This document shows, piece by piece, positions 9,186-33,463 of a stretch of DNA of 64,000 bases; position 1 is the first letter of the stretch; each line of letters opens with the position of its first letter. Source of the stretch: Amoebidium appalachense (taxonomy: Eukaryota > Protista > Ichthyosporea); the NCBI GenBank assembly GCA_963693365.1, contig CAVNZM010000009.1, forward strand, positions 4,165,146 to 4,229,145, in the 5' to 3' direction. Under the pieces are notes generated by a model, which saw only the letters and a program-made list of their open reading frames with translations, was not told the origin of the DNA and made no database searches. The translations under genes and the position numbers were made by a program.

Positions 9186-10376
9186 ATGTTGCCTGTGCAG
9201 CAGGTTATCAACAATGAGAATGTGCATGAGGCGCCACAGTGGTGTAAGTTTCTGGTGGCTTTAGGCATATACGAACCAATGCAGCTAGTACAGTGGTATG
9301 AGGAGAATGGCAATGGCCAAGGGTATGGACTGTTCTGGTACGATAAGAACGACGAGCCTGTGATAGACACGTGGAGTGAAGCCAATGAGATCACGCAGGT
9401 GGGGGTGGATACGATAAGCATGGGCGGATGTGATTGGCGTTTCTCCGAGGAGGACATGGCGTGGGCAGCACGTGTGGGGTGGGTGTGCGAGAAGTATGGC
9501 TACCTGCGACTGTTCCTGCCGGGCTGGAACATGCACGTGGCCGAGGCACCACAAGCGCACCAGCTGGTGTGCTATTTCCAGGGCCTTATCACCATGGGCC
9601 CGGACACACAGATAGATCACCGCAACCAAGTGGCTTCCGACAACCGGCGGACCAATCTCTGCCTGCGGCCAACAGCTTATAATAAGCTTAAAAAGCGAGT
9701 TGCAGGGCAGCCATGCCGGTTTGTGAACACGCGTGCCGATGGGCGCTTCGAGGTGCGGCTGCCTATGGTGCACAAGAAGGGCCGGTACCGGTTTTCCTGG
9801 TTCAAGCTCCTGTTCAATATCCAGGCTGATCCCCATCGCTATGCGAACTCGCTTCGTGGCCGCATCGTGATATCGGCAAGACCTTACTTTGCGTTCTACA
9901 ATGCCAGCATCCGGCTGTACTATTCGATCCTCTACGGCTGTGACAGCATCACGTTCTGGTTCTCCGGCCCTGCAGCCCGTTCTCTAGGGCTTCAGAACAA
10001 CGTGCCCAGTCAGAACCCATTTGCCGGTCGCCCTGTGCTATTGGTCCCCGCCGGGGGGCAGCAGGGCGTGGTGTCGCCCGGGCCGTATGGGCACGCAACA
10101 AGCATGCTGCAAGGCATCCCGTACACACGCGACACACCGCCCAAGCGGCTCTTTGTGCACCTAGACATCAACAACACCCGGGTCAAGGGTAACGTGCATG
10201 GGTTGCGCCCACTTGCCGTGGTGCCGACACGGAAGGCGGTTGACGACGTTTATGAACCGGTCATGCCCATCTACACGTCGTTGGTCGGCTGCGGGCCCGT
10301 TAGCACCGTCGGAGTGTCGATCGAGGACGAGTACGGCACACCCATAACAGGGGAGTACACAGTCATGCTGCGGTAA
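9186..10376 (+). CDS. HNH-type domain fused to a Polinton/PLV-like minor capsid (penton) domain
   Basis: The N-half has the HNH motif 'HQLV..QIDHRNQVASDNRRTNLCL..N'. The C-half 'FEVRLP..GRY.F..' to 'LFVHLDI..LAVVP..YEPVMPIYTSL..VSTVGVSIEDEYGTPI' matches the single jelly-roll penton pattern. AATAAA follows the stop. Confidence 0.6.
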   Translation: MLPVQQVINNENVHEAPQWCKFLVALGIYEPMQLVQWYEENGNGQGYGLFWYDKNDEPVIDTWSEANEITQVGVDTISMGGCDWRFSEEDMAWAARVGWVCEKYGYLRLFLPGWNMHVAEAPQAHQLVCYFQGLITMGPDTQIDHRNQVASDNRRTNLCLRPTAYNKLKKRVAGQPCRFVNTRADGRFEVRLPMVHKKGRYRFSWFKLLFNIQADPHRYANSLRGRIVISARPYFAFYNASIRLYYSILYGCDSITFWFSGPAARSLGLQNNVPSQNPFAGRPVLLVPAGGQQGVVSPGPYGHATSMLQGIPYTRDTPPKRLFVHLDINNTRVKGNVHGLRPLAVVPTRKAVDDVYEPVMPIYTSLVGCGPVSTVGVSIEDEYGTPITGEYTVMLR

Positions 10377-10401
10377 AAATAAAGTCTGTGCCAACGATCA
10401 A

Positions 10402-11364
10402 ATGATGCGTCTAGTGATATCGGCCATGCTGTGCGCGTCTACGGTGCAGTGCAAGAGGTCGCAGTGCCCGGCCGGGTCCGCGCTCCTGTTCTATCGAAGC
10501 TTCAAAAACGTACCGGACGGACCCTACGCCGTCGAGGTGTTGCGAAACGACGTGCCCAACGTGACGCTGGCGACCGGTGATGTCAGGAACATGATGATGG
10601 CCCATCAGGGAAGCCTGCGCATGAAACTGCCGGCCGGCTGTGTCGGCACCCAGGAATGCTCGTACCAGTGGAAGGTAGGCCTGGACCGGACTTTGGAGGC
10701 CATGTACGCATACAGCGTCAAATTCGAAAGCACGTACGACTTTGCCAAGGGTGGCAAGCTGCCCGGACTCTGCGGAAACACGTGCCCGACGGGCGGGCAC
10801 GACTCGTCGCTGGGCTTCAGCGCGCGTAACATGTGGCGCAAGAACGGCGAGCTCGTGAGCTACCTGTACCTGCACAGTAAAAAGGAGAGAATGGGGCGGG
10901 ATGTGGTGTGGATGAACGCCACGAGCGGCAAACCGCTGCGGCTGCCCACGGACAGGTGGGTGTTCCTTTATTTCTGGGTCCGACTGAACACGATCGGCAA
11001 GAACGACGGGCGGCTGGTTGGATTCTATAACGGCGAGGTTGCGGTCAATATCAAGATCGACTGGCGCAGGAGTGACGACGTGTTCATCGACACGTTCTAC
11101 TTTTCCAACTTTTACGGGGGCGGGGACAGCAGCTGGGCGCCGGACAGGGACATGTACATCCGGTTCAACGACCTCCAGGTGTGCACACGGGACGGATTTG
11201 GGTGGCTGAAGTACTACCAGGCGCCCCCTAAAAGCAACACCACGACGGCAGAAGAGGTCGGGAAGGATGTTGTGTCACAGACAGTGCCGGGCCTGCCAGG
11301 GCTCACGAAGCCAGCCCCCGCACGGCCATACGGGGCGTGCGTAATCCCCATACCAGAGCCCTAG
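10402..11364 (+). CDS. Secreted polysaccharide lyase, PL14-like (chlorovirus vAL-1/alginate lyase type)
   Basis: Signal-peptide-like N-terminus. Motifs 'YSVKFESTYDFAKGGKLPGL', 'GFSARNMWR', 'NDGRL' and 'FYFSNFYGGGDSSWAP'. Confidence 0.85.
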   Translation: MMRLVISAMLCASTVQCKRSQCPAGSALLFYRSFKNVPDGPYAVEVLRNDVPNVTLATGDVRNMMMAHQGSLRMKLPAGCVGTQECSYQWKVGLDRTLEAMYAYSVKFESTYDFAKGGKLPGLCGNTCPTGGHDSSLGFSARNMWRKNGELVSYLYLHSKKERMGRDVVWMNATSGKPLRLPTDRWVFLYFWVRLNTIGKNDGRLVGFYNGEVAVNIKIDWRRSDDVFIDTFYFSNFYGGGDSSWAPDRDMYIRFNDLQVCTRDGFGWLKYYQAPPKSNTTTAEEVGKDVVSQTVPGLPGLTKPAPARPYGACVIPIPEP

Positions 11365-11365
11365 T

Positions 11366-11905
11366 TTAGTCTACGCCAAAAGGTTTGTACTTCTTGAATG
11401 CCTTGCTGCGCCCATTGACGTAAAGGGAGTCGGGCTGCCGCAGCACGACACCCTCGCCTCCCGCGCTGGTGATGCGACGGAACATCCTGTAGAGCTCGCC
11501 GCTGTTCTTTACACGTCTATGCCGAACCACACGAATGGTCTTTGCTTTGAGTCGCGACAGCGCCCTTATACGTTTAGCAAACGGACCCCCTATTGCCGGC
11601 AGGTCAAAGACCATGAAGCGCACCTTCGGCCACCATTTGTTTTGCGTGTTTCGAACTATGCCGACAATCCGCGGCCGCGTCCCGTAGCCCGCAAACAGCT
11701 CGCCGTCAAGGACACGTTTGGGAAACCCCCTCGTGAACCAGGCAGGGGCGGGGATGCGTTTACCATGGCGAGTCCAAAGGTTGCGGCCGTCCCACAGGCA
11801 GCGGAGGCCGTCGTACTTCTCCGACGCGTACCAACCTATCATATCCTCCAACGGTCGGCTGTGGCTGTCTGTTTGCAGTCGGCGGCCCAGCATAGGCTTC
11901 ATCAC
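11366..11905 (-). CDS. Minimal ATP-dependent DNA ligase (adenylation domain only)
   Basis: Motif I 'SEKYDGLR', III 'LDGELF', IIIa 'FMVFDL', IV 'EGVVLR', V 'KYK'. The ORF ends before any OB-fold domain. Confidence 0.85.
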   Translation of the reverse strand: MMKPMLGRRLQTDSHSRPLEDMIGWYASEKYDGLRCLWDGRNLWTRHGKRIPAPAWFTRGFPKRVLDGELFAGYGTRPRIVGIVRNTQNKWWPKVRFMVFDLPAIGGPFAKRIRALSRLKAKTIRVVRHRRVKNSGELYRMFRRITSAGGEGVVLRQPDSLYVNGRSKAFKKYKPFGVD

Positions 11906-11915: not shown

Positions 11916-12632
11916 CTACAAAGCCGTGACCGTTGTGACCGAACGGCTGTGAATGTGCTGTTCCAGCATGCGGCAGGTCTCTGTGAGTGCAGGGTAGAAG
12001 GCGTCCTGAAGGTGCTCGGTCATTACACGTTTGCGGTTCGACTTTCGGCACAATAGAAGAGCTTCGGTTAGCACACACTCGGTGAACGACTGGATTATGC
12101 AGGCGCACGCGATTCCGCTGATAACACTGACCCGCCACTTGACGGTAGGGTCAAGGGCCAGGAGGGTGTTCCGAAATCGTGAAGGGGGGAACACCAGCTT
12201 ACATCTACGTGTGATGGTGGTACGCGTACCGACCGAAAGGTTGTTATCCTCGTAGAGTGCGAGGCTCTCCTGGATGCGCGACAACATCCCCCGCACCACA
12301 CTGTCCGACAGGAACACGCGAGCGGCACCGACTACATGCCGAAGCTTCACGGTTACGTGGCGTGCGTCACCCAGCATGTGGACAATACACATGCCGAGTT
12401 TCTCCTGCAGCGCGGTCTGGAACATGTTGAGGTAGTCCAGCGCGTGCTTGTTTATCGCCAGGGTCGACATGCGTTTCAGCAAGCGGTATGTGTAGGCATT
12501 GTAGGATTTGCACTTCTCCCGGGGAGAAAACGACTCCGGGGACGGAAACGCCGTGTCGGGGTAGTAGCACGGTAGCACCTCGGGCAGGCAGTTCAGCACG
12601 CCGTTGTTCTGGGCAGGGCATGGTATCTCCAT
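11916..12632 (-). CDS. Fused histone H2B-H2A doublet
   Basis: H2B-like 'KSYNAYTYRLLKR..INKHALDYLN..TVKLRHVVGAARVFL' followed by H2A-like 'TRRCKLVFPPSRF..RVS..ACIIQSFTECVLTEA..RKRVMTEHLQ'. Confidence 0.75.
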   Translation of the reverse strand: MEIPCPAQNNGVLNCLPEVLPCYYPDTAFPSPESFSPREKCKSYNAYTYRLLKRMSTLAINKHALDYLNMFQTALQEKLGMCIVHMLGDARHVTVKLRHVVGAARVFLSDSVVRGMLSRIQESLALYEDNNLSVGTRTTITRRCKLVFPPSRFRNTLLALDPTVKWRVSVISGIACACIIQSFTECVLTEALLLCRKSNRKRVMTEHLQDAFYPALTETCRMLEQHIHSRSVTTVTAL

Positions 12633-12653: not shown

Positions 12654-13151
12654 GTGGCCCCCAATAACGCTTCAGCCACGCAATCCGCCCGCTATGTAAT
12701 GTCGTCGATGAGGCTCTACGCCGCAGAGAGGGAGGTCTACACGAGGGGCGTGCTTCGCTCACGGACGTATGTGGACATTCCCGCCAACATTGTGGGAACA
12801 CGGGACGATACATGCGCGAGGTACCCGCTGTGCACGCCCGAGACCATGGATGAGTGGCAGCAGTACAGATACTGTGGGAAGGGAGCTCATGAAACCGGCA
12901 GCCTTGCAATGGAGGTAGACATGTGGAGCGACATCCGCCGTCAGGAGGATCTGGTGAACACGATGTCGGCAAGGCTCGGTGGCCCGTTCATCAGGTATCC
13001 CGTACAGGAAAGCATCTGCACCTTCGGCAGCCCGTCATCCGACACCCCGCGCTGGTTTGCCGACCGTATGGACAGGTACATCAACCTGCCGTCCGAAGCT
13101 CCGGTTGGTCTTTATGTCTCACACCCCGAGATGCAATTGATCTTTCTTTAA
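12654..13151 (+). CDS. Hypothetical viral protein (true ATG probably downstream of 12654)
   Basis: 165-aa ORF filling an intergenic slot; no recognised motif. Confidence 0.5.
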   Translation: MAPNNASATQSARYVMSSMRLYAAEREVYTRGVLRSRTYVDIPANIVGTRDDTCARYPLCTPETMDEWQQYRYCGKGAHETGSLAMEVDMWSDIRRQEDLVNTMSARLGGPFIRYPVQESICTFGSPSSDTPRWFADRMDRYINLPSEAPVGLYVSHPEMQLIFL

Positions 13152-13208: not shown

Positions 13209-13565
13209 ATGGGTGAAACCAAGTCCAAGAAGAAGGTCGGTATCCGCAAGCAGTGGAAGCTCCTGTGCGAGTACGCCGTCGCCCACGACGGGGACATCGA
13301 CAAGATGGGTCTTGACGACCCGCTCTTTGAAGGCGGACCCACAGTCGGCCAGTTCCTGTTGCGCCACTACCTGAACCGCTGCATCGCTCCGTTCATGAAG
13401 GCCCAGGCTAAGGCCCCCCAAGCCGAGGCCGAGTCTGCCTCTGCCCCAGCAGCACCCGCCCCCCCAGCACCCGAGGAAGCCCCCCCCTGCCCCCCCGACC
13501 AATGCGACACCCGACACCAGTGGGGAGAAGCGCCAGGCCCAGGCGGACCCGCCCGGAGCGCCTAA
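13209..13565 (+). CDS. Hypothetical viral protein with Pro/Ala-rich tail
   Basis: ATG-initiated 118-aa ORF with GC3-biased codons, preceded by TTTTCTATAC. Confidence 0.6.
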   Translation: MGETKSKKKVGIRKQWKLLCEYAVAHDGDIDKMGLDDPLFEGGPTVGQFLLRHYLNRCIAPFMKAQAKAPQAEAESASAPAAPAPPAPEEAPPCPPDQCDTRHQWGEAPGPGGPARSA

Positions 13566-13747
13566 AAAAAAGGCCCGCAAGATAGCACCGAAACCACCAG
13601 CTGGTATAGTGCTTCATGCGTAATCGTGTGAATCGCCCGGTGGGTGACAACAACATCAATAAAACAACCATACCCAACACCCGAATCCATACAGACACAA
13701 CTTGGCCAAAGAGTATAAATAACCCCTTCGCATAGGCAGTTCCCTCA

Positions 13748-14327
13748 ATGGCTCTCTACCCCGAGTACCCCAACCCAAGCCACATTGCCCCTCCCCTGCC
13801 CGACCAACGTGTATCACCGGGTACTGTGGTGTCCGTGAATCCCGTCAACCTGACGCAAAGCGTATGCCACTACTGCTGCCACCCTTTCACGGGGCCTCTG
13901 GTCGCAATACCAATACGATTCAAGATGGAAAAGGGACTGTTTTATTGTACACCCAATGTGTTTTGTTCTTTCGCGTGCGCCCGGGCGCATCTGAAGGTGA
14001 TGCCGGGGTACGTCAAAGCCCGCGCCCCCTCTTTGCTGTCGATGATGTACCGAAGAATGGGGGGGCAGCTGGAAAACGTGGCCGAACCCCGCCCCTCCGC
14101 GATCTGTGCTCAAGCTGTTTGGGGGCAACATGGACATCGAGGAGTTCCGTGCGGCGTCGCAGAAGGGGGCGCATCCCGTGCAGCTGTCGAGCTGCCCGTT
14201 CGTGCTGGAGGAGCTATACGTCGTGTCCAGACACGCCATCAAGGAGGGGCCCAGACGGCCCGCCCCGCTCCCCGCACCCCCACGACAGACGGAGGCCAGC
14301 ATCATGGGGTTCCTGACAGCACGGTGA
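13748..14327 (+). pseudogene. VLTF2-like late transcription factor with a +1 frameshift
   Basis: 'CHYCCHPF..IP..FCSFACA' in frame 1. Removing one C at 14087-14090 continues into 'PAPPRSVLKLFGGNMDIEEFR', a VLTF2-type C-terminal motif. TATA box at 13714. Confidence 0.8.
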
Positions 14328-14489: not shown

Positions 14490-15005
14490 CTAGCTGAACG
14501 TCCCCATGGCTGTCTGCGTCTGGTCGCTCGAGGCATTTGTCTCTGGAACAAATAAACCCAGTGGATTGACGCTTGGGATTTCATAACGTGGCAGAATCCA
14601 CGGGACCAGCAACCCCAACCCCTCCAGCGGCACAAACCCCCTCCTGAGAACCAGCCCCGATCCCAGGATTACGTGCACGTGCTCGCCCCTCGCCAGCGTG
14701 TTCGCAATTTCAAGAAGCTTGACGGTATCGAGCTCAAAGGCGGTGCCCTCGAAACGTTCGCTGACCCGCCGTAGGGCCTGGAGCGCGCGCAGCAGCAGGT
14801 CGTCCCCGTTAAGGTGTAGGTGTATCACGGACGGGCTGTTGATGAACCGGTGGGTCTCCCAGCGGTACACGGCACTGCGGGCCATCTCGACGTACATGCG
14901 GCCTTCTAGGTGCGCCGGCAGACGTGCGGCACATCCGTGACTCCGGTAGAAGGCGACGGCAGCCTGGTAGGCCAGCGAGGTCTCAGAAGAGCGGAGTGTC
15001 ATCAC
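14490..15005 (-). CDS. Hypothetical viral protein (possibly frameshifted C-terminus of 14983-15543)
   Basis: 171-aa ORF overlapping the upstream ORF by 23 nt. Confidence 0.45.
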   Translation of the reverse strand: MMTLRSSETSLAYQAAVAFYRSHGCAARLPAHLEGRMYVEMARSAVYRWETHRFINSPSVIHLHLNGDDLLLRALQALRRVSERFEGTAFELDTVKLLEIANTLARGEHVHVILGSGLVLRRGFVPLEGLGLLVPWILPRYEIPSVNPLGLFVPETNASSDQTQTAMGTFS

Positions 15006-15543
15006 TGAGCTTGGTCAGCAGCTCCTTGTACTTTATACGCGACGGCGGCTGCGGCATGACCTTGGCGAGCTTGCTGTCGATGAGGGCCTCCAGCTGGCGA
15101 TCGCGCTCGCGCCTGCGCTGCTCGCGCTCCTCGCCCTGCTGGTCACGGGTGGCCTGCAGGGAAGTGGTGTGCTTCTCGAGCATCTCGCGCTGCTGCTGCA
15201 CCTGCTGCTCGAGGGCGGCGATGTGCTCGCGGGCCTTCTCGTACTCCTCGAGGCGCTTGTCGAGCTTCTCGTAGTTGGTGCGTGCCTGCTCCCAGTACTC
15301 GGCCTTCATCTTCTCCATGCGGTCGGCAAGCTCGGTTTTGGACACGATCTGCTGCTCCAGCTTCTCCTGCGTCTCCTTGACCCAGCGCTCCAGCTCCTTG
15401 TTGCGGCGGTCGTAGGCCTCGAGGTCGGTGTTCTTCTGCAGGATGGCGCGGCGGTACTCCTCCTGTGCGGCCTTGAACTCCTCCTGTGCGGCCTCGAACT
15501 TCTTCTCCATCATCTTGGCATCCAGAATAGCTCCGATGTCCAT
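14983..15543 (-). CDS. Coiled-coil viral protein
   Basis: 186-aa E/K/Q/R-rich heptad ORF with strong GC3 bias. Confidence 0.7.
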   Translation of the reverse strand: MDIGAILDAKMMEKKFEAAQEEFKAAQEEYRRAILQKNTDLEAYDRRNKELERWVKETQEKLEQQIVSKTELADRMEKMKAEYWEQARTNYEKLDKRLEEYEKAREHIAALEQQVQQQREMLEKHTTSLQATRDQQGEEREQRRRERDRQLEALIDSKLAKVMPQPPSRIKYKELLTKLSDDTPLF

Positions 15544-15578: not shown

Positions 15579-16283
15579 TCAGTCCTCGTTGCCGTACGAC
15601 TGGAACTTCCTGTCGCCCGCCCGGAAGCGGATGGACGGCTCGGCCCGCCAGTAGTAGAGCTTGTCCTCGGGGCGATTTGACTTGTGGGTGCGGTCCAGGA
15701 CCAGGATGCCGTAGTTCTGGGTGTACTCATTCAGCAGCTCGTTGAACTCCCTGAAGGACTCGATGAAGCCGAAGAAGCTCTCCCACAGCTTCCGGCGTTC
15801 CAGCTGGCTGTCCTCGGCGAACACGAAGAGACAGTTGATGTTGTTGCGGTACTCGGGCGGGATGCTCTTTGCGTACTGGATGCTCATGAGGTAGAACCAG
15901 TTGAAGTGGCGGCCGTTGAAGAAGATCTGGCGGATGGTGGGGTCGGTCTTGAGCTGCTTGTCGTATATGACGTCCTCGGCGATGCAGAAGATGTTGGGGG
16001 AGGTGCGCTTGGTCCAGCTCTTGACCCTGTCCTTCTGGCGCTCATAGAGCTGGCGCAGCTCGGTGGGACGGAACTCGTTGTAGACGAACGCCTTGTTGAG
16101 GAAGCGGCCCCAGAACTGGTTGCCGTCCTCGGTGGCGCTCATGGCGATGCCGGCGCTCAGGTACTTGCGCTTGTGGTAGAGGACGTTGGCCATGGCGATG
16201 CTCTTGCCACTGCCACGGGGCCCGACAAAGACGCACACGGCCTCGGGAGGGATGGTGTTCGGGTAGAACGGCTGGAGCTTCAT
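15579..16283 (-). CDS. A32-like genome packaging ATPase (FtsK/HerA superfamily)
   Basis: Walker A 'GPRGSGKS', Walker B 'FCIAEDV', arginine finger 'FFNGRH' and sensor 'MSIQY'. ATG at 16283. Confidence 0.92.
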   Translation of the reverse strand: MKLQPFYPNTIPPEAVCVFVGPRGSGKSIAMANVLYHKRKYLSAGIAMSATEDGNQFWGRFLNKAFVYNEFRPTELRQLYERQKDRVKSWTKRTSPNIFCIAEDVIYDKQLKTDPTIRQIFFNGRHFNWFYLMSIQYAKSIPPEYRNNINCLFVFAEDSQLERRKLWESFFGFIESFREFNELLNEYTQNYGILVLDRTHKSNRPEDKLYYWRAEPSIRFRAGDRKFQSYGNED

Positions 16284-23520: not shown

Positions 23521-23534
23521 AGTGCCAGCCCCAA

Positions 23535-26500
23535 TTATTTGCAGGCGAGGACATCTGCAACTGAGGGTTTGGGAACGGCAGCTCGGGCGGCTGTGCCTGG
23601 TAGGCATACGACGGCTGCGCGTGGTAGGCAATAGCCCAGGCGGACCTTGCGGCCGCCTGAGAGGAAAACTCCTGATCCTGCACGGTTACACCAGGCCTCA
23701 GATGGGACCTGTCGGTATTGATTGATGGGCGGGACCCCAACTTGTTCCGAAGGGACGTAGGTCATCTGTTGAAGCGGGAATCCGGGGCTGGGAAGCCGGC
23801 GCTTTGGCGAAATCCAACGCAGGTTCGACGGTGCCGCGTAGGCAACACCCATCTGGGGCTTTGGCAAAATCCTACGCAGGTTTGACGGTGCCGCGTAGGC
23901 AGCACCCATTACGCTGGGGCTTTGACTCTGCTCCGTGGGTTGCTGCTTATGCCTACGAGCATTTACCCCGTCGGACGAGTCCATATCCCGCTTGCGCTTC
24001 TTTGATATGGGTGGCGGCGGGGCGGGCTCCCCCACCATGCTCGCTGGGGTAGGGGGGTTGAACTGGTCAAACCCAGTACGTATCAGACTGGAGGGCTGTA
24101 TAGGCCTACGAACGTCCACCTGGCCCGAAGAGTCCATGATCCGCTTGCGCTTCTTTGATTGCCGTAGCAGCGGAGCGGGCTCCCCCACCATGCTCGCTGG
24201 GGTAGGGGGGTTGAACTGGTCAAACCCATTGTGCACCGGGTTGGAAGTCTGGTCCACGCTCATCGGGCTTGAGTCCACGTCCATGCTCGCTGGGCTCGCG
24301 GGGGGAAACTGGTCAAATCCATCACGCATTAGACTGGAAGTCTGGTCTTAGCTCATCGGGTCTGGGGTCGGAGTGTTGAACGGGTCCATAGGCTGGTCGA
24401 TTTCCATGGGTGTTGTGGGATGTTGAGCAGCAACAGCAGGGATATCAGTTCCCGCTTGAAGTGGAACTTCTTCGTTGGGTACCCGTCCTGGATGGGAAGA
24501 ACCGGGTATGTCGGCGCCTTTCTCCTTAGCGGTGTCCTTTTGTTTCGCGCGCTTTTCGTAGATTGATGCGAACAGACCATCAAACTCGGCAGGGTTTGGG
24601 GTCTGCACACGGGCTCTACGCAGATCGTTGAGCTGATCGCGGGTGGTGAAGCTCTCTTGAAGCTCGGCCTTCAGCTCGTTGTTAAGGGCGCCCAGCACAG
24701 CCCTTGCACGTATGCGAGCAGCCGCAAGGACATCCGCGTTCTGCGACAGCGACTCCGGAAGCACGGGCATGGCGGGATCTTCGAGCTTGGCCGGCTTGTG
24801 CTTTGCAGGGCGTTGCGTGGCCACCAGCTCCTTACGCTGCCAGGCCTTGGGGTCGGTGCTGAAGAGCTCCCACCGTTGGTCGCTAACGGAAGGGGCAACG
24901 CGCGCGTAAGCACGCACCAAATCGTCCGAGCCGTGGCCCCTGGACAAGGTGTCCGTCACGGACGCGCGGCCTGTAGGCGTGAGCCGCCACAGCGCGCCTG
25001 CATGGGTGATGAAGCATGCGGGGTTCTGCAGTATGCTGTCGCGCAGGCGGCGTAGCTGGAAGAGGGGCCAGTTGGGGTTGTCGGGCCACTTGAGGGGCTT
25101 GTCCTGTGGGTTCGTAACCTTAAGTACGCGCGTGTAGATGGTCCCCTCGGGGGCGAAGAAGCCCATGCGGTCCTTGCGGATGTTTGCATTGCGGGTGATG
25201 TTGACTGGCAGGCCGTACCCGCACTTTTTCAACCAGTTGACGACATAGTCCGGGTTTTGCTCGATCAGGGCGCAGCCGTCCTGGATCAGCTTGCGCAGGT
25301 GGTAGTAGGTTTTGGGATAGTGGGCGCGCACATGCTGCTTGACGAACCCGATAGCCAACTCGGCAATGTTGTATTTGGAGTTGTACGGCGGCAGCCACTG
25401 GAACCGCCAGCGCTTGCGCACGGCCAGCTGCTTGATTTTGTCTTTGTTTTCCTCGGTGTTGTGCACGGGGGCATTGTCCATGCACAGAATGGCACCGTCG
25501 GTGCGGGGATCGGCGGCCAACACATGCTCAAGAAAGACACAGAAAGTACGCCCGTCGAGCTCGTCCGGAACCAGCTCCTTCTTCGAGAGCGGGGCCTCTC
25601 GCTCCCGGCCGTTTGGAGCAAGATGCCGGTAGTTGAACAAAGGGTCGTCCGAGGGCCGTGGGCTGAGGATCAGGTACTTAACAACGGCACGCATGGATCC
25701 GTCACTTTCCGGCTTGGGAAACCCCACGGCTATCAACAGCTTGGTGCCTATGCCGCGAAGCTTGGGCTTGGGCGTCTTGTGGTGCGAGCCGCGGTGGCCC
25801 CACACACGCCCTGGCGTCTCGTCAAGGTACACGGAGGCCTCGTCAAGGAACACAAGGTTCCGGCGGCTGTCCTGTAGGTACGGCAGACGCTCAACCTCAA
25901 AGTACTGCGTGGCGGCGGCTACGGACCGCACAAAGGTGTTGGTGGGGTCGCCCTCGCCGCGACGGTACGTCAGCCCGAGGCGCCTGCGCCACTTGTTGAG
26001 CGTGGACACTGCCACGGTCATGCGCTCGGCCTCGGAAAGCCCCGGGACGGCGTTGTAGGCGGCGATGAGCTTCTCGCTGGTCAGGCTGGGCACCTTCGTG
26101 GTGAGCTCGTACAGCACGATCTTTTGCACGTCCGTCAGCTTTGTCGACTTCTCGTTTGCCCTTCCAAGGTTGAAGCCCTGGCGGCTTCCAAGCTCACCGT
26201 GCTTAATTGCATGCGAAATGACCCGGCGCACCGTCTGTGGGCTTATCTTCAGCCGTTGCGCAATGACGGTAGCCTTCTCGTCCCGAAGGTGCCCCAGCAG
26301 GATGGCGTCGCGAATGTCTTGCGTGTACGCCTTTCCGCGCCCCAGTCGCCCGACGGGCTGCTGGGCCGTTGTCAGTGTGTGCACTTCGATTTCAGCAGGC
26401 GGGGCCTTTGCAAGCGGCTTCTCTGCGTACCAATGTCCCCCCTGCACCAGCAGCAGCCGGGCTCCATCGGGGCCCTCTACCCAGATGGCCCCCTCTGTTG

Positions 26501-28263
26501 AGTCTGGCCCGCCATGGGAGACCGTGTTGTCGGGGAGAATGCCCAGGGTGAAGGGGGTCTTGTGACCTTACGGTGCCCCGGGTCGGTAGGGGTTCGTAGA
26601 CAACTGAGCGGACCGGCGATGAGCTGTCCGGTGCCTCGACATTGAGCAGGTCACCTGTGGACTCCAGGGGTTTCATACGCTGGCGCTCTAGCTGGTACAA
26701 CGCAAGCGGGGATCGCCCGTCTGGGGGTTGCGGGTAGAACCCAACAAAGGTGGCATTGGACTTGTAGACAACAGGCCTGCCCGTGTGCTCCACAACGTGC
26801 ATGGCAACAAACATTGTGCGGGGCACGTAACGGTCAAGCCGCAACACGAGGTACGTGAGGGGCCGGAAGTGGTTCGATATGTTTGGATCCACAAACACAA
26901 TCCCGCACACTGAATCGGTGATGTCGGTGGTTGTGTTTACGGCAGCAGTCGGCTGCCGGGGCTTCCCAGCGGTGTACAGCCCTGAAAGCTGCTCCCGCTT
27001 ACGCGCGGCCCATGCGGCGACGGCCGTGCGTGCGTTTTCTGTTGACACGCCCAGTGCATGCGCAACTGTTGCGAGCTCCTGGGCGGTCCAGTCTGCGGTG
27101 GTAGGCGCAGGTCCCTCTGCCCTCCGTCTAGTGGAAACTGCACCAATGATGCGTCTGCGGACGTCGTCGTAGCCCTGCCGGACCTTCCCTTCCCCTCCGC
27201 TGGTGCTCTTTTTCACCTCGTCAAAGAAACGGTTGTGCATCTCGAACTCCTTCTCGCTTGCGCGGGTTTCACCTGGCCGAGGCCGTCCCCTAGCGAGCTG
27301 AAGACCTCTTGCATTTTCCAGCGGCAGATCAGTATCTTTAGCGAGTGCTTCGAGGATGGGCTTCGCCCGCCCGTAGAACTCCTGCTGTGAAAGATCGCTG
27401 GCGACGCTCATGGTCAGGTCCTTGAGGGCCTGCCGCATGGTTTCGCGGTCTGCACCTGATGCGCGCAGCTCACGGGCCAACTTCGCGCGCTCGGCTATCA
27501 AGGTCTGAAGCGCGTGTTTGTAGGGGTAGGCACGCTCGTCGTCCGGGCGGTCGACCCCTTCCACGAATTCAGGTCGGGGAAGCCCGGGCACCATCAGGGC
27601 CAGGGCCTCGAGCATGTTGGCGTCCCCGGCATCCTCTGACTGCTCGACTCTGTCTTCTTTTTTTTGCATGGCGGCATTCGTTTTCCGTATGCTTTGCCCT
27701 TCTAGTCGCTGAGCCTCAGCAGGCGCAGCGTACGCCATTCGCATGCGCTCCGGATGGTCTGGCCGGGCAGGCTGACGGCCAGGGTGGTTTTTCCATGCCT
27801 TGGTAAACAGGGATTGACCAGTCGAATCTGTTACACCCTCAAGCTTGACTAGGCGAGGTGTGGTTGTGCGCACATACACCTTGTCCAGGACTCCCTGGAC
27901 AACTTCGGCGGTTTTTCGGTCCTCGTCTGGAGGGCCGGGAGATGTGGCAAGATCTTTCCCCGCAAGCTCCTCCCACCATGTTGCGGATTGGGGAAGCGGT
28001 GGGGCGGACGAGGCTGGTGCGTACATGGGGTCGCGGATGCGGAACCGTAGATTCAGGCCGCTGTCCCTTGCCTGTTTGTCAGTGCCCGTGTTGTAGGACG
28101 GGTGCTGCCGATCTTGGACGAGCTGTGCGAGGGGAAAGGGCAGGTCGGCCAGAGGTTCAAGATAGAAGCGGCCGGGATACTCGGCACTTGGCCAGGCCTG
28201 GGCCACGACTTTATTGGACTGGGTGTCCAGTACAATATATCCCGGCGTACGTGACCGGTCCAT
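23535..28263 (-). pseudogene. Giant (~1,575-codon) gene with an internal IS630/Tc1 DDE transposase, broken by one frameshift (~26570) and one stop (24348-24350)
   Basis: HTH 'IAQRLKISPQTVRRVI' and catalytic 'FLDEAS', 'MDNAPVH', 'LPPYNSKYNIAE' (DD38E). ORF 23535-24329 is in frame after the stop, and 'PMS*DQTS' mirrors the repeat 'PMSVDQTS'. The transposase frame stays open upstream to ~26566, overlapping ORF 26392-28389. Confidence 0.7.
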
Positions 28264-28282: not shown

Positions 28283-29065
28283 TCAAATCGGGCAGAGATG
28301 GAAGGCGAGGACACCCAAGTCACTGACGGCGTACTCGAAGCGTATGAGCTTATTGCTGGACATGTGTATCCTGACGTAGCTGCTGACACACGCCCCCTTG
28401 CAGAACGCGCTTAGGTACTTGACCATGAACTGGGCCTTGACCTTCTCTGCCGGCACCCTCTTGAACTCCACACCCGTCGCCTTCCCCCTCCGAATCTTGA
28501 GCGCGTCCTCTCCCTTTTCAGGGATGTCGATCCTGCACTTGCCCAGCGCTCCAAGCGCACGTAGGCGCAGCGTGCGGTCAGCGACAGTAATCTTTACAAC
28601 GTTGGACACGGCCTGAATGTCGCGCAGGTAGCGTGCAAGCTCCTGTGCGTCGATAATGAAAATGCAGTCGTAGTCGAGCAAGGGGGCGTCGAGAATAGGG
28701 CGGACCTCCTTGACCAGGGTCATGTTGTACACAATGCAGCTGCTGTCGTCAGTGGTCTCCATTTTGACCTGCAGTGTGTCGTCGGTGGCGGTGAAGGCGA
28801 TGCTGTTGAATCGGTGGGCGGCGGCGTTTTTGACAATCTTGTACAGGTTCTGGATCTCAAAGGTGGCGGTAACATCTTCGGAAACGTCAAAGATCTCGAA
28901 GTCGGGATTCAACTTCATGTAGACGTACGCCTTTTTGGCATTGTCGACAGCGGGCAGCACAAAGCCCTCCTTTGCACTAAAAAGCACGGTGACCTCCCCG
29001 AGTATGTCCTTGACGCTGTCAATTGCGCATTTGAATGTGTTGACTTGTACTGTTTTGACGAGCAT
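28283..29065 (-). CDS. PCNA: Viral PCNA sliding clamp
   Basis: 'FKCAIDSVKDILGEV..F..EG..AVDNAK', 'FMVKYL..FCK' and 'Y.VSDLG.L.FHLCP'. 260 aa, intronless, TATA box at 29103. Confidence 0.93.
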   Translation of the reverse strand: MLVKTVQVNTFKCAIDSVKDILGEVTVLFSAKEGFVLPAVDNAKKAYVYMKLNPDFEIFDVSEDVTATFEIQNLYKIVKNAAAHRFNSIAFTATDDTLQVKMETTDDSSCIVYNMTLVKEVRPILDAPLLDYDCIFIIDAQELARYLRDIQAVSNVVKITVADRTLRLRALGALGKCRIDIPEKGEDALKIRRGKATGVEFKRVPAEKVKAQFMVKYLSAFCKGACVSSYVRIHMSSNKLIRFEYAVSDLGVLAFHLCPI

Positions 29066-29154: not shown

Positions 29155-29982
29155 ATGAGTTCTGGATCGCTGGACCGCACGCTGCTGTATATGGGCATCA
29201 TCGCAGCAGGCGTCTACTATTACAACAAGAGGGCATCGGCTTGGCAAGGCGGACCGTACCAGCCGGCCAACCGCGAGCCAGACCAGCCTCCCGCGGGTAC
29301 CAACGACCCCGGCACGTGGTGGGGGTTGCAGCCCTGGGACAGCCCTTTTGACCGGGACGTTGCGCTCGCATACAGGGACAGCGCGAGGGCGTTTGACGAC
29401 CAGAACGTTGCCATGGGCAACCAGGAGTACTTTGGGGACGAGGAAGACGAGTATGTGCTCGGGTACGACGAATACGCTACGGCCGACGATGGGGGCACGG
29501 TTGTAAACACGGGCAACGGGCCGGTCATGGTGCCGCAGGCGCCTCCGCCTACGCGGACGGTGCAACAGGCATCGGTGGTGCCCTCGGGTACACCGTCAGC
29601 GCTCATTGGTGCGCCTGCACGGCCGGCAGTGCACCCCAACCTTGTGGAGACTGTGCATCGGGCAGGGACGAATGTCAGCAACTCAACCATGGACGCGATT
29701 TCGGAGATCCGGGGCACGGGCCTATTTACGGGTAGCGAGATGCGTCCGCGCGAGCGCCTGAGCGTGGCCAAGCTGACGCCGCAGGAGGTGCTTGCGGCCA
29801 CGACGCGCCCGCGCAACGTTGCGGCGCCGGCGGTGTACAAGAAGAACGGCAACCTGCAGCTACGTCCGGACCCTACTATCCACAGCGCGGGCCTGGACAA
29901 CCTCCCGTCCATCAGCACACAGCGCGACCTCAAGCAGCGTGAGTCATTCTCGAACGAGCTTGCATCGACGCTGCTTTTTTGA
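29155..29982 (+). CDS. Membrane-anchored virion protein, PBCV-1 P11-like
   Basis: N-terminal TM 'LLYMGIIAAGVYYY'. C-terminal 'KKNGNLQLRPDPTI..STQRDLKQR' resembles the conserved P11 C-terminal motif. Confidence 0.55.
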   Translation: MSSGSLDRTLLYMGIIAAGVYYYNKRASAWQGGPYQPANREPDQPPAGTNDPGTWWGLQPWDSPFDRDVALAYRDSARAFDDQNVAMGNQEYFGDEEDEYVLGYDEYATADDGGTVVNTGNGPVMVPQAPPPTRTVQQASVVPSGTPSALIGAPARPAVHPNLVETVHRAGTNVSNSTMDAISEIRGTGLFTGSEMRPRERLSVAKLTPQEVLAATTRPRNVAAPAVYKKNGNLQLRPDPTIHSAGLDNLPSISTQRDLKQRESFSNELASTLLF

Positions 29983-30023: not shown

Positions 30024-31462
30024 CTACGCCCCCGTAATCTTTGCATGCTCAAACACGTACGCGTGCACGTACTCCTCCGGATCCATCCCTTCCCCGCCGC
30101 CCACAGCTAACGTGCCCCGCTGCCGCTTGGCGCGGCCTCCCAGCACCTTGCCAAGCAAACCGCCCAGTTTCTTTACGCTGACTGCGGCCGGGTCCTTGCC
30201 GTTGCGGACCGCCCATGTGCGCATGCGCTCGGCCAGCCCGCTCGTGGTCACGTGAGCGCCGTCGGCAACGACGAGGTCCTCGCACCCATCGGCGCCGGTC
30301 GCGATGTCCCTCAGGAAGACCAAATTGTCGTCGAGTGTGGCGATGCGCAGCTCCCTCTTGAGGTCGGTCACGGGCGGCGGCGGCAGCACGGGCGGCACGT
30401 CGGGCACGGACACGAGCAGGTCGTGGATGGCCTGCAGCACCTCGGGGTCGCTGTGGTGTTGGTGAAACGTGGCAAAGTAGGCCGTGTCGCCGACACGCGC
30501 GTTGCTGACGGCCATGCACGCGTAGCGGCGGTCGCTGGGCTCGACAAGCACGGGGTTGCTCTCGTTGGTCAGCAGCACGTAGCGCTCGCACGCACGCACG
30601 GCCACGGCATCCTGACCTTTCTTCTCGAGGATGTTGGACGACTCGGTGATGAGCGACTTCATGATGTTGTTGACCTCACGCGAGTTGCTGAACAGCACCT
30701 CGTCGACCACCACCAGCAGCTTGTTCTGCAGGTGCGCATTGAAGTGGTTCTGGATGCGGTCGCGCCGGTTGACGTACACGGAGTGCTCGGCACCCATGGC
30801 GTCGATGAGCGCCTGGAAGAAGATGTTCTTGCCCGCCCCCTGCTTGGACACGAGCAGCAGCGCGCTGCCGGGCTTGGACGCCGGGTGCTGGAACAGGTGG
30901 CCCATCCATAGCATCAGGTAGTCAAAAAGCACGGGGTCGCCGCCGCACAGCACGTCGCGCGCGTGCGAGACGAAGGGCGCCACCAGCTCGTCGCGCCGGG
31001 CTACGGGCATGTTGCTCAGCGTGAACCGGAACCCGGTGAACAGGTTGAACGTGCGGTAGGGCCCGACGGACTTCTTGTTCACCCCCGTGCGCGGGTCCGG
31101 GCTGGCGGGATCGAACACCAGGCGGTCGTACATGAGGATGTACGGGCTGTTGAGGTAGTCGCGGCCGCGGTGGGGGGCGACGGGCTGCTGGTTGGGGCGG
31201 TCGGCCAGCAGCGGGAAGTGGAACTTGGCGAGCGTGTCCTGGATGTCGCGCTTGCCCAGGATGCGGTGCTCGTACTTCAGCCTGTCCTGGCACCACTGCT
31301 TGAGGATGTACGTCGAGCAGCCCTTGACGTGGGCGACATTGCTGCGCAGGTAGGCGACGGCGAGCTCCGGGGTCCACTCGTGGTCCAGGCAGGCATCGGG
31401 GATGAAGGGGTTCCGAAGTGCGGGCCGGCGGCGGTGTCTTCGAAGGCGAGGTAGTCGTCCAT
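30024..31462 (-). pseudogene. SF3 helicase (D5/NrS-1-like helicase domain), frameshift near 31415
   Basis: Walker A 'SKQGAGKN', Walker B 'LVVVDE', sensor 'LLTN', and 'DRRY'. The frame is open from ~31412, while the ATG at 31462 is one base out of frame. TATA box at 31504. Confidence 0.85.
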
Positions 31463-31665: not shown

Positions 31666-32358
31666 ATGGACCTTGCTTCTACCATGGAGACCCTGACACA
31701 GCAATTTCCGGTGTTGAAGAATGCAGCAGTGCGAACAGACCCCGCTACCAACAAAGTTAGCGTTCTGGACATCATGGCGTTGGTACTTGGGAATCGCAAT
31801 GCAGCGCACCAGTCATGGCTACGTATGGTCAAGGAAAATGGCATACGAACTGGGCTAACCAATCAAGATCGTCTAATGGGTGTGGTCAACATGCGCTTAC
31901 CTGGAATGAGCAAGCCAACACCATTTGCTACCCTCAACACAGTTCGCGAGATCGTGAAGGCTCTAATACCAGGCTGCAAACTGTCCATTGATAAAAAGCA
32001 GTACTGGATGCATGTGTTTGATTTGGCCGACCTCCCTATAGTACTGCTGCAGACATCGGCCGAGAGCGAGACCATTAACATCATACGGCAGTGCACATCA
32101 TGTTTCAAAAGCAAGCCCCAGTTCTATGTCAAGCCCTACCGAGTGGACCTTTTTTTTCCAGAACTCAACCTGGTGGTGGAGTGTGACGAGCACAATCATG
32201 ATGACCGCGATCCGACCTATGAGGAAGAGCGCCAGAACCACATCACCAAGCAACTGGGATGTAGGTGGCTACGGTACAACCCATATGCAGACAACTTTAT
32301 TGTGTACCGGGTCATCAGTGATATTCTGCAGTTGGCTATGCTTCTGCTTGTCAACTGA
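31666..32358 (+). CDS. Bro/antirepressor-like N-terminal domain plus DUF559 (Vsr-like) nuclease
   Basis: 'YRVDLFFPELNLVVECDEHNH..ERQ..I..LGCRWLRYNP'. N-terminus is paralogous to the 32639 ORF. TATA box at 31603. Confidence 0.75.
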   Translation: MDLASTMETLTQQFPVLKNAAVRTDPATNKVSVLDIMALVLGNRNAAHQSWLRMVKENGIRTGLTNQDRLMGVVNMRLPGMSKPTPFATLNTVREIVKALIPGCKLSIDKKQYWMHVFDLADLPIVLLQTSAESETINIIRQCTSCFKSKPQFYVKPYRVDLFFPELNLVVECDEHNHDDRDPTYEEERQNHITKQLGCRWLRYNPYADNFIVYRVISDILQLAMLLLVN

Positions 32359-32399
32359 CAGTATACCGGCATTCCATCAATCGCGGTGACTCAGTAAGG

Positions 32400-32570
32400 T
32401 CGATTTGATTGGTGGAAACGGTGGGGTTGGTGATGTATGACGTCATCGAGATGAATTCGGCCAATCACATCAATCTTACTGCCAGTAGGATTGAGAATCG
32501 CAAAGCGGCTTGCTGCTCATGAAATTCGTCACGACTTGCCCGTTCGGCAATTTGGCGAAGGTATAAAAGG
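32400..32570 (+). promoter_or_regulatory. Pol II-type promoter: CCAAT boxes, TGACGTCA, TATA
   Basis: tgattgg (~32406), atgacgtcat (~32437), ggccaatc (~32459) and GGTATAAAAGG (32560). Confidence 0.55.
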
Positions 32571-32638
32571 AGTCGCGCGCGTCTGAATCATTCAGTCCAC
32601 CCAAGGAGCCCTTCCAGCAACACGGATCCCGCATCAAC

Positions 32639-33463
32639 ATGGACAACCCTACCCCAGCCAGCATCAACATGGACAGCCTCGCCAAGCAGTTCCCCATGTT
32701 CAAGAACGCCGGTATGCGAGTCGACCAGGCTACCAACAAGGCCAGCGTTCTGGACGCCATCGCGCTGGTGCTGGGGAATCGCAATGCCGCACACAAGGCT
32801 TGGCATGACATGAAAATGACCAGTCAGAGCGCTGCAATCGTCAAACCTACCGGCAGTAAGGTTGACTTGACTGGGCAGAACTTACTTGATGACGTCATCG
32901 ACATTCGCCTGCCAGGCATGAGCAAGCCCACCCCGATGGCCCCCTTCAAGACCCTGCTCGAGATCATCTACCTGCTGCCCGGCAAGCGTGCGCACGAGGT
33001 GCGCCGCACCAGCGCGGCGTACATGTCGCGTCTGCTCGCCGGCGACCTGTCGCTCATCGACGACATCGAGGCCCGCTACACCAACAGCACGCCCGAGGAG
33101 CGCGAGTTCTTCCGTAACGGCGTCGAGGAGACCACCGAGCGCGCGGCCAAGCGCACGGCCCGCGAGGCGCAGCTGGAGGAGCTGGTGGCCGAGAAGACCA
33201 AGCTGCTGAAGGTTGCCATGGAGCTGATGGACGAGCAGCGGCTGACCATTGCGCTGCGCAACGGGGCCATCCGCCAGATGCGCGAGCAGATCAACTCGGA
33301 CCCCCACACGCTCAACGAGCGCGTGCTGCCCGATGACGTAGGCAAGTGTGCACTGGACGTCGGATGCGAGGTGCTGCGCGCACGCCTGAGGAGGGTACTT
33401 AGGACTTTTGAGATTTGGGTGTTTTCTATGGAAATGCTCGGTTATCCCTTGTATATTTTGTAA
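32639..33463 (+). CDS. Paralogous Bro/antirepressor-like protein, probably truncated at the virus/host junction (~33.35 kb)
   Basis: Shares 'QFP..KNA..R.D.ATNK.SVLD..ALVLGNRNAAH' and 'RLPGMSKPTP' with the 31666 ORF. Composition turns AT-rich after ~33390. Confidence 0.65.
   Translation: MDNPTPASINMDSLAKQFPMFKNAGMRVDQATNKASVLDAIALVLGNRNAAHKAWHDMKMTSQSAAIVKPTGSKVDLTGQNLLDDVIDIRLPGMSKPTPMAPFKTLLEIIYLLPGKRAHEVRRTSAAYMSRLLAGDLSLIDDIEARYTNSTPEEREFFRNGVEETTERAAKRTAREAQLEELVAEKTKLLKVAMELMDEQRLTIALRNGAIRQMREQINSDPHTLNERVLPDDVGKCALDVGCEVLRARLRRVLRTFEIWVFSMEMLGYPLYIL

What the first reader, a model, noticed from the sequence alone, without database searches (positions are those of the whole stretch)
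9186..33400. Compact endogenous virus with a hybrid giant-virus / Polinton-like gene set
Seen: about 22 intronless, packed genes in ~24 kb of otherwise microsatellite-rich host DNA. Known: A32 ATPase, VLTF2, PCNA, P11-like protein and histone doublets are Nucleocytoviricota traits, whereas this style of penton is typical of Polintons/PLVs. Inference: the dense clustering of core functions, TATA-driven genes, absence of RNA polymerase genes in this segment and a resident DDE transposase suggest a small, nucleus-replicating, self-integrating lineage rather than a random fragment of a large giant-virus genome.
Basis: partly seen in the sequence, partly recalled or inferred. Interest (0 to 1): 0.92.

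Follow-up and report, generated by a model that had tools for sequence, protein, structure and literature searches.

The report
Decaying nucleus-dependent giant-virus insert
A 24-kb block of viral genes (DNA-packaging ATPase, sliding clamp, helicase, fused H2B-H2A histone) is assembled inside a eukaryote's repeat-rich DNA and has many diverged relatives in public sequencing runs; it is most likely a truncated, decaying piece of an unnamed, probably nucleus-dependent giant-virus lineage rather than a new giant-virus/Polinton hybrid.

Summary
The block is real: 25 intronless loci, 89% coding, no microsatellite arrays and CpG o/e 0.93, against 3.4-4.4 arrays/kb and 0.70 in the flanks. Confirmed by profile: A32 ATPase, PCNA, H2B-H2A doublet, primase-less SF3 helicase, ligase core, PL14 lyase, HNH, KilA-N/T5orf172 and an IS630-type DDE domain. 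VLTF2, penton and 'P11' rest on recalled motifs only. The ATPase is nucleocytovirus-type (best named: Pandoravirus 29%, Medusavirus 27%) and sits in an unnamed environmental clade (71-78%). No major capsid, PolB, VLTF3, HUH, rve or tyrosine integrase, terminal repeats or target-site duplication were found, and 7 of 25 loci are frame-broken. Four public runs hold many diverged variants with swappable nuclease cassettes, and 23 of 38 coding differences fall at third codon positions. TATA boxes precede 9 of 25 genes, mostly replication, transcription-factor and nuclease genes. Best reading (0.6): a truncated relic of a repeatedly endogenised, nucleus-dependent nucleocytovirus, like the published Amoebidium insertions. 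The 'hybrid' claim is weak. A small virus integrating by its own DDE protein stays open (0.2). Host, junctions and full genome size were not established.

The parts
9186..10376 (+). HNH endonuclease (N-terminal) in frame with a penton/minor-capsid-like C-terminal region (about residues 172-396); the first residues may be host-derived
   Evidence: Pfam HNH_3 E=7e-5; penton only a lead: Atlas 0.85 to unnamed viral clusters, 0.83 to a Sputnik V18/19 cluster; motif match is from recall
10402..11364 (+). PL14 polysaccharide (alginate-type) lyase
   Evidence: PF21294 E=1e-35; PDB alginate lyases and chlorovirus vAL-1
11366..11902 (-). ATP-dependent DNA ligase, adenylation domain only (178 aa)
   Evidence: PF01068 E=9e-10; PDB minimal ligases E=1e-27
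11916..12632 (-). H2B-H2A histone doublet
   Evidence: Residues 42-211 align to engineered H2B-H2A single chains, best E=5e-6
12699..13151 (+).
   Evidence: No Pfam hit; one chance PDB hit at E=0.72
13209..13625 (+). Unknown ORF with a frame break
   Evidence: Three-frame reading
13748..14316 (+). VLTF2-like late transcription factor, frame break near 14090; TATA box 35 nt upstream
   Evidence: Motifs recognised from recall; no profile hit; TATA
14490..15543 (-). Two unknown ORFs (170 aa; 186-aa coiled coil)
15579..16283 (-). A32-type packaging ATPase, intact, 234 aa
   Evidence: Pox_A32; model pLDDT 82.6; all named top-50 Foldseek hits are nucleocytoviruses; 6 environmental relatives at 71-78%
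16560..18071 (+). KilA-N plus T5orf172-like nuclease cassette, broken in a 41-bp tandem-repeat tract; absent from some family members
   Evidence: KilA-N 24.1 bits; contigs in 3 of 4 runs join 16421 to 18115
18510..19076 (-). Unknown ORF, 188 aa
   Evidence: no family
19117..21878 (-). Three paralogs of the T5orf172-like cassette (pseudogene 19117-19600; 19954-20457; 20538-21878)
   Evidence: PF10544 21 bits; mutual BLAST E=1e-5 to 1e-35; joint 19841-20542 in 4 of 4 runs
22129..24329 (-). Small membrane protein (22129-22386), 295-aa unknown, 73-aa basic protein (29% K+R), repeat-rich ORF with a frame break
24348..28263 (-). Probably one ~1,300-aa gene broken near 26570: unknown N-terminal ~560 aa, HTH, IS630/Tc1-type DD38E domain with intact triad, unknown C-terminal ~300 aa; no flanking TIRs
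   Evidence: DDE_3 E=3e-13; NF033545 IS630 E=2e-28, below its cut-off by 0.3 bit; triad spacing and TIR scan; no in-frame ATG before the HTH; no Atlas hit for the N-terminal part
28283..29065 (-). Viral-type PCNA, intact; TATA box 46 nt upstream
   Evidence: PCNA_C E=1e-19, PCNA_N E=5e-7; 3 close relatives at 46-78%, then 33% or less
29155..29982 (+). 275-aa ORF with an N-terminal hydrophobic stretch, function not assigned
30024..31462 (-). SF3 (DUF5906/VapE-like) helicase without a primase domain, frame break near 31420; TATA box 50 nt upstream
   Evidence: PF19263 E=2e-19; phage primase-helicase C-termini 28-31%
31666..33390 (+). Two genes sharing a 52%-identical N-terminal domain; the first ends in a DUF559 PD-(D/E)XK-like nuclease, the second runs into AT-rich non-viral sequence near 33390
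   Evidence: GC drop
8225..8571 (.). Foldback repeat just left of the element (host MITE-like, not a viral terminus)
   Evidence: 98.6% palindrome; one arm recurs at 60921-61037 at 87%
33490..35360 (.). Probable host transposon abutting the right end: CTAGG/CCTAG sub-terminal motifs, 133-bp tandem duplication, methyltransferase fragment
   Evidence: 14 motifs, 12 of them within 35158-35360

Best explanation
This is a block of nucleocytovirus-type genes assembled within eukaryotic DNA, most likely a truncated and decaying endogenous copy of an unnamed, probably nucleus-dependent virus that likely integrated many times into this host lineage. Inferred working of the parent virus: after entering the nucleus, host RNA polymerase II reads the TATA-bearing genes first (PCNA, SF3 helicase, the VLTF2-like factor, the nuclease cassettes). 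VLTF2 and PCNA (a PCNA homolog is a late transcription factor in vaccinia; recalled) then switch on the TATA-less genes (A32 ATPase, penton candidate, H2B-H2A doublet, lyase, membrane proteins). Clamp, helicase and ligase core serve replication by a polymerase encoded elsewhere or by the host. The histone doublet would condense viral DNA, A32 would package it, and the lyase would attack a cell-wall polysaccharide. Insertion was likely by host break repair of nuclear viral DNA, since no termini or target duplication are seen. Afterwards the copy likely lost its capsid and polymerase genes, took frame breaks and was bounded by host repeats. The DDE protein is more likely a resident selfish gene than the virus's integrase. 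Shown: gene content, composition contrast, TATA distribution, frame breaks, lack of termini, family of variants. Inferred: expression order, replication site, integration route, parent genome size.
For: Composition contrast and intronless packing. ATPase is nucleocytovirus-type; ranks 1-2 are Pandoravirus neocaledonia (29%) and Medusavirus stheno (27%), the neighbourhood reported for Amoebidium insertions (PMC11244446, section 7). An H2B-H2A doublet is known from clandestinovirus and marseilleviruses (PMC9145170, passages). PCNA, VLTF2 and ligase without RNA polymerase match the skiavirus/ariadnavirus set. All 10 stop-free frames of 300 aa or more in 8600-35400 belong to assigned genes, none an MCP or PolB. 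No terminal repeats. 7 of 25 loci broken; one run holds a contig identical to the window across one break, while contigs of two other runs carry an indel there. Runs laid 2205, 3330, 317 and 98 contigs spanning identity classes from 99+ to under 90%, with joints that skip nuclease cassettes and one contig with different sequence past the helicase. 23 of 38 coding differences lie at third codon positions, P=5e-4, as expected if copies diverged as replicating viruses. Published Amoebidium insertions also never carry a full core set.
Against: Six or seven core-type genes in 24 kb is denser than I would expect from a slice of a 370-kb medusavirus (inference). An A32 relative (P0005) and a PCNA relative (P0022) both sit on ENA contigs of 3317 nt, hinting at a compact core block; that they share one contig was not shown. 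The ATPase's named hits are all only 27-29% identical and rank 3 is an iridovirid, so placement is weak; the tree has no labelled references and puts the clade on a long branch. The helicase lacks the primase that canonical D5 has, as in some mriyaviruses. The Amoebidium paper found no histones in its insertions and JmjC genes in 39% of them; here there is a histone and no JmjC. The DDE triad is intact and the gene is packed 18-19 nt from its neighbours like a native gene.
Confidence: 0.6

Rival explanations
1. A compact (roughly 30-70 kb) nucleocytovirus lineage that integrates itself with a ~1,300-aa IS630/Tc1-type DDE protein and lives as a multi-copy provirus family; this window holds one clipped copy.
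For: High density of core genes; intact DD38E triad and HTH inside a large gene with no TIRs of its own; many variants under purifying selection; primase-less helicase and no polymerase in the segment; possible A32-PCNA adjacency in a relative. Integrase-bearing 20-30 kb nucleocytovirus-like groups exist (Zora, VC134, VC218; 10.64898/2026.06.19.733378, part 3).
Against: No TIR or TA duplication at either end; no MCP; IS630-Tc1 genes are documented passengers in giant proviruses; the DDE gene has no TATA box, unlike the other DNA-handling genes; PCNA and histone are not mentioned in the mriyavirus paper or the PLV framework (0 occurrences).
Confidence: 0.2
2. Chimeric assembly: DNA of a co-cultured, persistently infecting nucleocytovirus joined to host contigs through repeats at both ends.
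For: Both ends abut repeats; no junction-spanning contig is listed; persistent circular skiaviruses co-sequence with protist cultures (10.64898/2026.07.28.741200, passages); the element shows no CpG erosion.
Against: Seven broken loci, including helicase and VLTF2-like, fit decay better than a live virus; one break is matched exactly by a contig in a run, though that run may be the source of the assembly. The right-end gene grades into non-viral sequence mid-frame. Many 85-99% variants in each run suit many insertions.
Confidence: 0.1
3. A true composite: a Polinton-like virus fragment (HNH-penton end) recombined with or inserted next to a giant-virus fragment.
For: The penton candidate's nearest named cluster is Sputnik V18/19 (0.83) and one of the top three clusters is mostly Preplasmiviricota; it lies at the very edge of the block. 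Hosts with both giant-virus and adintovirus insertions are known.
Against: The top Atlas cluster is commonest in Nucleocytoviricota; scores under 0.9 are leads only; composition and gene spacing are continuous across the block; no other PLV hallmark is present.
Confidence: 0.05
4. An endogenous member of Mriyaviricetes.
For: VLTF2-like gene, SF3 helicase without active primase, PD-(D/E)XK-like nuclease, Sputnik-like penton candidate, no polymerases.
Against: No HUH endonuclease, RuvC, VLTF3 or MCP in this copy; PCNA and histone are foreign to the described set; ATPase hits are Megaviricetes.
Confidence: 0.05

Closest known systems
Amoebidium giant endogenous viral elements (Sarre et al. 2024, PMC11244446)
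   Same: Intron-poor, gene-dense, polymorphic, multi-copy insertions with incomplete core sets; A32, D5-type helicase, PCNA and integrase-type domains; placed near Medusavirus and clandestinovirus; host with CG methylation.
   Different: That paper found no histones in the insertions and JmjC genes in 39%; this copy has an H2B-H2A doublet and no JmjC. Host identity here was not established, so this may be a related case or one of that kind in another host.
Mamonoviridae and 'Manesviridae' (medusaviruses, clandestinovirus)
   Same: Nucleus-dependent; medusaviruses lack RNA polymerase; clandestinovirus has an H2B-H2A doublet; Medusavirus stheno A32 is the second-ranked structural hit.
   Different: Only 27% ATPase identity; 369-670 kb genomes with PolB and full histone sets; none described as a multi-copy provirus family in the papers I read.
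Skiavirales / 'Ariadnavirales' (SmDNAV relatives)
   Same: Keep A32, VLTF2, PCNA, sometimes ligase and HNH while lacking RNA polymerase and mostly PolB.
   Different: 190-252 kb; lack D5-like helicase; one preprint says they lack histones, the other reports H3 in two genomes; no sequence link was tested.
Mriyaviricetes and Zora/VC134/VC218 groups
   Same: Compact nucleocytovirus-related gene sets with VLTF2, SF3 helicase and Sputnik-like penton; some related groups carry integrases.
   Different: Defined by HUH, Mriya48, MCP, VLTF3, RuvC, none found here; their integrases are rve or tyrosine type, not IS630.
IS630-Tc1-mariner selfish elements of giant proviruses (Chlamydomonas GEVE; brown-algal EVE 22)
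   Same: IS630-type DDE gene inside viral DNA.
   Different: Here no Fanzor partner or TIRs were found, and the DDE domain appears embedded in a ~1,300-aa protein.

Membership tests
Nucleocytoviricota (Megaviricetes-type) | A32-type packaging ATPase of nucleocytovirus type | tested here: met
   All named top-50 Foldseek hits are nucleocytoviruses, TM up to 0.85; 10 of the 50 carry no name and the library may hold few PLVs
Nucleocytoviricota (Megaviricetes-type) | Late transcription factors VLTF2 / VLTF3 | tested here: inconclusive
   VLTF2 by recalled motif only, no profile hit; no VLTF3 hit among 29 proteins
Nucleocytoviricota (Megaviricetes-type) | Double jelly-roll major capsid protein | tested here: not met
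   Absent from this copy; the copy is truncated, so this does not speak for the parent virus
Nucleocytoviricota (Megaviricetes-type) | Family B DNA polymerase and D5 primase-helicase | tested here: inconclusive
   No PolB in the window; SF3 helicase present without primase
Mamonoviridae / 'Manesviridae' | Monophyly in MCP-A32-VLTF3 trees | not testable with these tools
   No labelled references could be put in the tree; structural rank only
Mamonoviridae / 'Manesviridae' | Full set of core histones | tested here: inconclusive
   Only H2B-H2A in this truncated copy
Mriyaviricetes | HUH endonuclease | tested here: not met
   No hit among the element's proteins
Mriyaviricetes | MCP, VLTF3, RuvC core and 35-45 kb genome | tested here: not met
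   None found in 24 kb; no termini
Polintons / Polinton-like viruses | pPolB or TVpol-helicase, and rve or tyrosine integrase | tested here: not met
   the only integrase-like domain is IS630-type
Polintons / Polinton-like viruses | Terminal inverted repeats with target-site duplication | tested here: not met
   Only scattered 10-mers shared between the ends; no BLASTN match
Polintons / Polinton-like viruses | Single jelly-roll penton | tested here: inconclusive
   Atlas lead 0.83-0.85; no homologs; model pLDDT 31.6
IS630/Tc1/mariner transposon | HTH plus DDE catalytic triad | tested here: met
   D-121-D-38-E
IS630/Tc1/mariner transposon | TIRs and TA target duplication around the gene | tested here: not met
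   Only short chance 9-11-mers
Amoebidium-type GEVE | Gene-dense, intron-poor insertion with incomplete core set in a multi-copy family | tested here: met
Amoebidium-type GEVE | Ichthyosporean host and dense 5mC over the insertion | not testable with these tools
   No genome held; 1 of 125 flank frames passed a Pfam cut-off (GH31); no rRNA or tRNA; no CGC-specific depletion

The most novel reading that the evidence does not exclude
An undescribed lineage of small-genome, nucleus-replicating Megaviricetes that carries its own PCNA and H2B-H2A doublet, runs a two-tier promoter system on host polymerase II, and integrates with a ~1,300-aa IS630/Tc1-type DDE protein, forming a large, recently active provirus family in a cultured eukaryote. 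It would be the first nucleocytovirus I found reported with a Tc1-type integrase (searches found such genes only as passengers) and a size intermediate between mriyaviruses and giant viruses.
Probability: 0.2. Interest if true: 0.85.

Novelty: new member of a known kind. Interest (0 to 1): 0.5.

Why it matters
As a relic it adds an unnamed nucleocytovirus lineage with a host link: its ATPase has only short environmental relatives and under 30% identity to named viruses. It brings a divergent H2B-H2A doublet relevant to viral histone evolution, and a clean sequence signal of host-polymerase-driven early versus late genes. How giant viruses integrate is an open question; a family with many recent, independently diverged insertions makes it testable by reading junctions. 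If the DDE protein proved to be the integrase of a compact virus, that would be a new integration route for the phylum.

Tried and rejected
No whole genome was held, so syntenic copies, MCP and PolB could not be sought in the assembly. IMG/VR scans with the ATPase, its close alignment, PCNA, DDE region, helicase, histone and the 31666/32639 domain found no relative; the wide ATPase alignment gave 14 loci at 28-32% sharing at most one weak other hit with the element. Both metagenome scans were blank; genome contigs gave one 29% locus with no other shared gene. None of 4 window proteins was in the exact-sequence collection. Penton: two homolog searches blank, PDB blank, single-sequence fold unusable and its fold search meaningless. 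Atlas had no usable hit for the 623-aa ORF. PDB had no hit for the DDE protein. No RNA holder listed. Run X18 covers 24 of 30 bins and none of 23910-27893 (the DDE gene), with no contig joining across; summed depth is also lower there in the other runs; neither is used as evidence. The foldback at 8225-8571 was considered as a viral hairpin terminus and rejected because its arm recurs at 60921 in host DNA. Host placement failed: only a GH31 exon passed a Pfam cut-off among 125 flank frames. Six answered look-ups of earlier findings returned nothing. The Amoebidium supplement tables held none of five terms; 4 of 18 PDF pages were pictures and I read part 1 of 2, so gene lists of those insertions were not seen; bioRxiv supplements were closed.

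Full report
Observation. Between about 9190 and 33390 the window is a packed, intronless block: 25 loci on my curated list, 89% coding. It has no simple-repeat arrays in 24.9 kb, against 3.4 and 4.4 per kb in the flanks. CpG o/e is 0.93 inside and 0.70-0.71 outside after masking, and GC is 0.59 against 0.46-0.49. The right flank carries a multi-exon gene with AG/GT ends, so the surroundings are eukaryotic. The host could not be identified: no genome is held, there is no tRNA or Rfam match, and only 1 of 125 flank frames passed a Pfam cut-off.

Gene content. Profiles confirm an HNH nuclease, PL14 lyase, ligase adenylation domain, histone, A32 ATPase, KilA-N and T5orf172 domains, an IS630-type DDE domain with HTH, PCNA, a DUF5906 SF3 helicase and a DUF559 nuclease. 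The histone is an H2B-H2A doublet. VLTF2 is recognisable only by motifs I recall (blanks). The penton is an Atlas lead at 0.83-0.85, under the tool's 0.9 bar, with no homologs and a failed fold. 'P11' had no hit. All 10 stop-free frames of 300 aa or more belong to assigned genes, so no major capsid protein or PolB is hidden; no VLTF3, RNA polymerase, HUH, rve or tyrosine recombinase was detected. Seven of 25 loci have frame breaks, including the VLTF2-like gene, the helicase and the large DDE gene. The HTH-DDE frame has no ATG before the HTH, so it is probably the tail of one ~1,300-aa gene starting at 28263; its D-121-D-38-E triad is intact and it has no TIRs.

Promoters. GTATAWA occurs 11 times against 0.86 expected; 9 sites lie within 130 nt upstream of a start on the same strand, a zone covering 6.7% of positions. 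They precede the VLTF2-like gene, PCNA, the helicase, four nuclease-cassette genes and one unknown ORF; a ninth gene has a CTATAAAAG variant. A32, the penton candidate, histone, lyase and ligase have none. I infer an early class read by host polymerase II and a late class needing viral factors. No expression data were available.

Ends. The two ends share no direct or inverted repeat beyond chance 10-mers. The left end abuts GC-rich modules and a foldback that recurs in host DNA. The right-most gene runs mid-frame into AT-rich sequence followed by a probable host transposon. The ends therefore look secondary.

Relatives. The ATPase has 6 environmental relatives at 71-78% on contigs of 5 kb or less, then a gap to 42%; with cluster members they form a supported, long-branched clade of 10 of 34 rows in an unlabelled tree. 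PCNA shows the same pattern. A good ATPase model (pLDDT 82.6) retrieves only nucleocytoviruses among the named top 50, led by Pandoravirus neocaledonia (29%), Medusavirus stheno (27%) and an iridovirid (27%). This fixes the type but not the family. An A32 relative and a PCNA relative lie on ENA contigs of the same length, 3317 nt; if it is one contig the core block is compact there.

Family in sequencing runs. Twenty of 24 listed runs, from 3 named studies plus 9 rows naming none, hold part of 9000-18900, at most 56% of its words. Laying four of them on 13950-33840 placed 2205, 3330, 317 and 98 contigs in identity classes from 99+ to under 90%, covering 30, 30, 30 and 24 of 30 bins. Contigs join across the KilA-N cassette (16421-18115) in 3 of 4 runs and across 19841-20542 in 4 of 4. 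One 2542-nt contig matches the helicase but carries 1531 other bases beyond its stop. One run holds both a 97%-identical contig of depth 110 and a window-identical contig of depth 5. Depth is not a copy number and one run may be the source of the assembly, but this pattern fits many diverged copies with interchangeable nuclease cassettes. Of the 40 best-supported differences (1153 more not shown), 23 of 38 coding ones are at third codon positions (P=5e-4): the copies diverged mostly under selection, as viruses, before insertion.

Comparison with print. Sarre et al. (PMC11244446; abstract, passages, results sections, part 1 of 2 of the supplement PDF) describe 132 polymorphic medusavirus-related insertions in Amoebidium, none with a full core set, enriched in PCNA and integrases, but without histones. 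Skiaviruses/ariadnaviruses keep A32, VLTF2 and PCNA without RNA polymerase at 190-252 kb (10.64898/2026.07.28.741200, passages; 10.64898/2026.08.29.747986, parts 1-2 of 4 and passages), so missing RNA polymerase does not imply a small genome. Clandestinovirus and marseilleviruses have H2B-H2A doublets (PMC9145170, PMC11500106, passages). Mriyaviruses are defined by HUH, MCP, VLTF3 and RuvC, and minor capsid homologs span mriyaviruses, medusaviruses, marseilleviruses and Sputnik (PMC11253617, passages), which removes the basis for 'hybrid'. Integrase-bearing 20-30 kb nucleocytovirus-like groups exist (10.64898/2026.06.19.733378, parts 1-3 of 5). IS630-Tc1 genes in giant proviruses are reported as passengers (10.1101/2024.09.03.611062 and PMC11890097, passages). 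I also saw part 1 of 6 of PMC12455990 and PMC13289167 and passages of PMC13533422; none describes this gene set in what I read. Ten library searches found no description of this lineage; the library lacks most subscription papers and bioRxiv supplements were closed.

Verdict. It works like a nucleus-dependent nucleocytovirus and is best filed as a truncated, decaying endogenous copy from an unnamed lineage near the medusavirus/pandoravirus part of Megaviricetes (0.6). It fails the tested defining features of Polintons/PLVs and mriyaviruses. A compact virus integrating through its own DDE protein remains possible (0.2) because of the core-gene density, the intact triad and the size of the family. 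A chimeric assembly gets 0.1. Novelty: new member of a known kind; interest 0.5.

Noticed in passing
window 8225-8571 and 60921-61190: 347-bp near-perfect foldback whose ~120-bp arm recurs 52 kb away at 87% identity, there followed by a 32-bp tandem repeat; looks like a GC-rich host MITE family.
   Followed up: partly
window 33490-35360: Probable non-autonomous host transposon with 14 CTAGG/CCTAG motifs, a perfect 133-bp tandem duplication (33852-34114) and an N6/N4 methyltransferase-like fragment.
   Followed up: partly
window 45986-48752: Satellite of 182-bp units (365-bp higher order), about 15 copies at 93%.
   Followed up: no
window 36030-42000 (-): Multi-exon host-type gene with microsatellite-filled introns and no Pfam family in any exon tested.
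   Followed up: partly
window 649-1113 (-): Exon of a glycoside hydrolase family 31 gene, the only flank frame passing a Pfam cut-off.
   Followed up: no
window 60182-60736 (-): Intronless ORF with 21-, 33- and 54-bp tandem repeats encoding an alanine/lysine-rich coiled coil.
   Followed up: no
window 8690-9190: Short inverted TGGCCA-rich repeats and three copies of a GC-rich ~55-bp module directly left of the first ORF; the ATG at 9186 probably lies in this non-viral sequence.
   Followed up: partly
window 32639-33390: In run X18 contigs over this gene are far deeper than over its neighbours and one continues past 33388 in other sequence, hinting that the gene moves on its own.
   Followed up: no
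window 11366-11902 (-): The ligase ends right after the adenylation domain, with no OB fold; whether it can seal nicks alone is unclear.
   Followed up: no
proteins P0023/P0171: A PCNA 69% identical to the window's lies on short NCBI-source records (551 and 1126 nt), possibly transcripts of a related virus or host.
   Followed up: no
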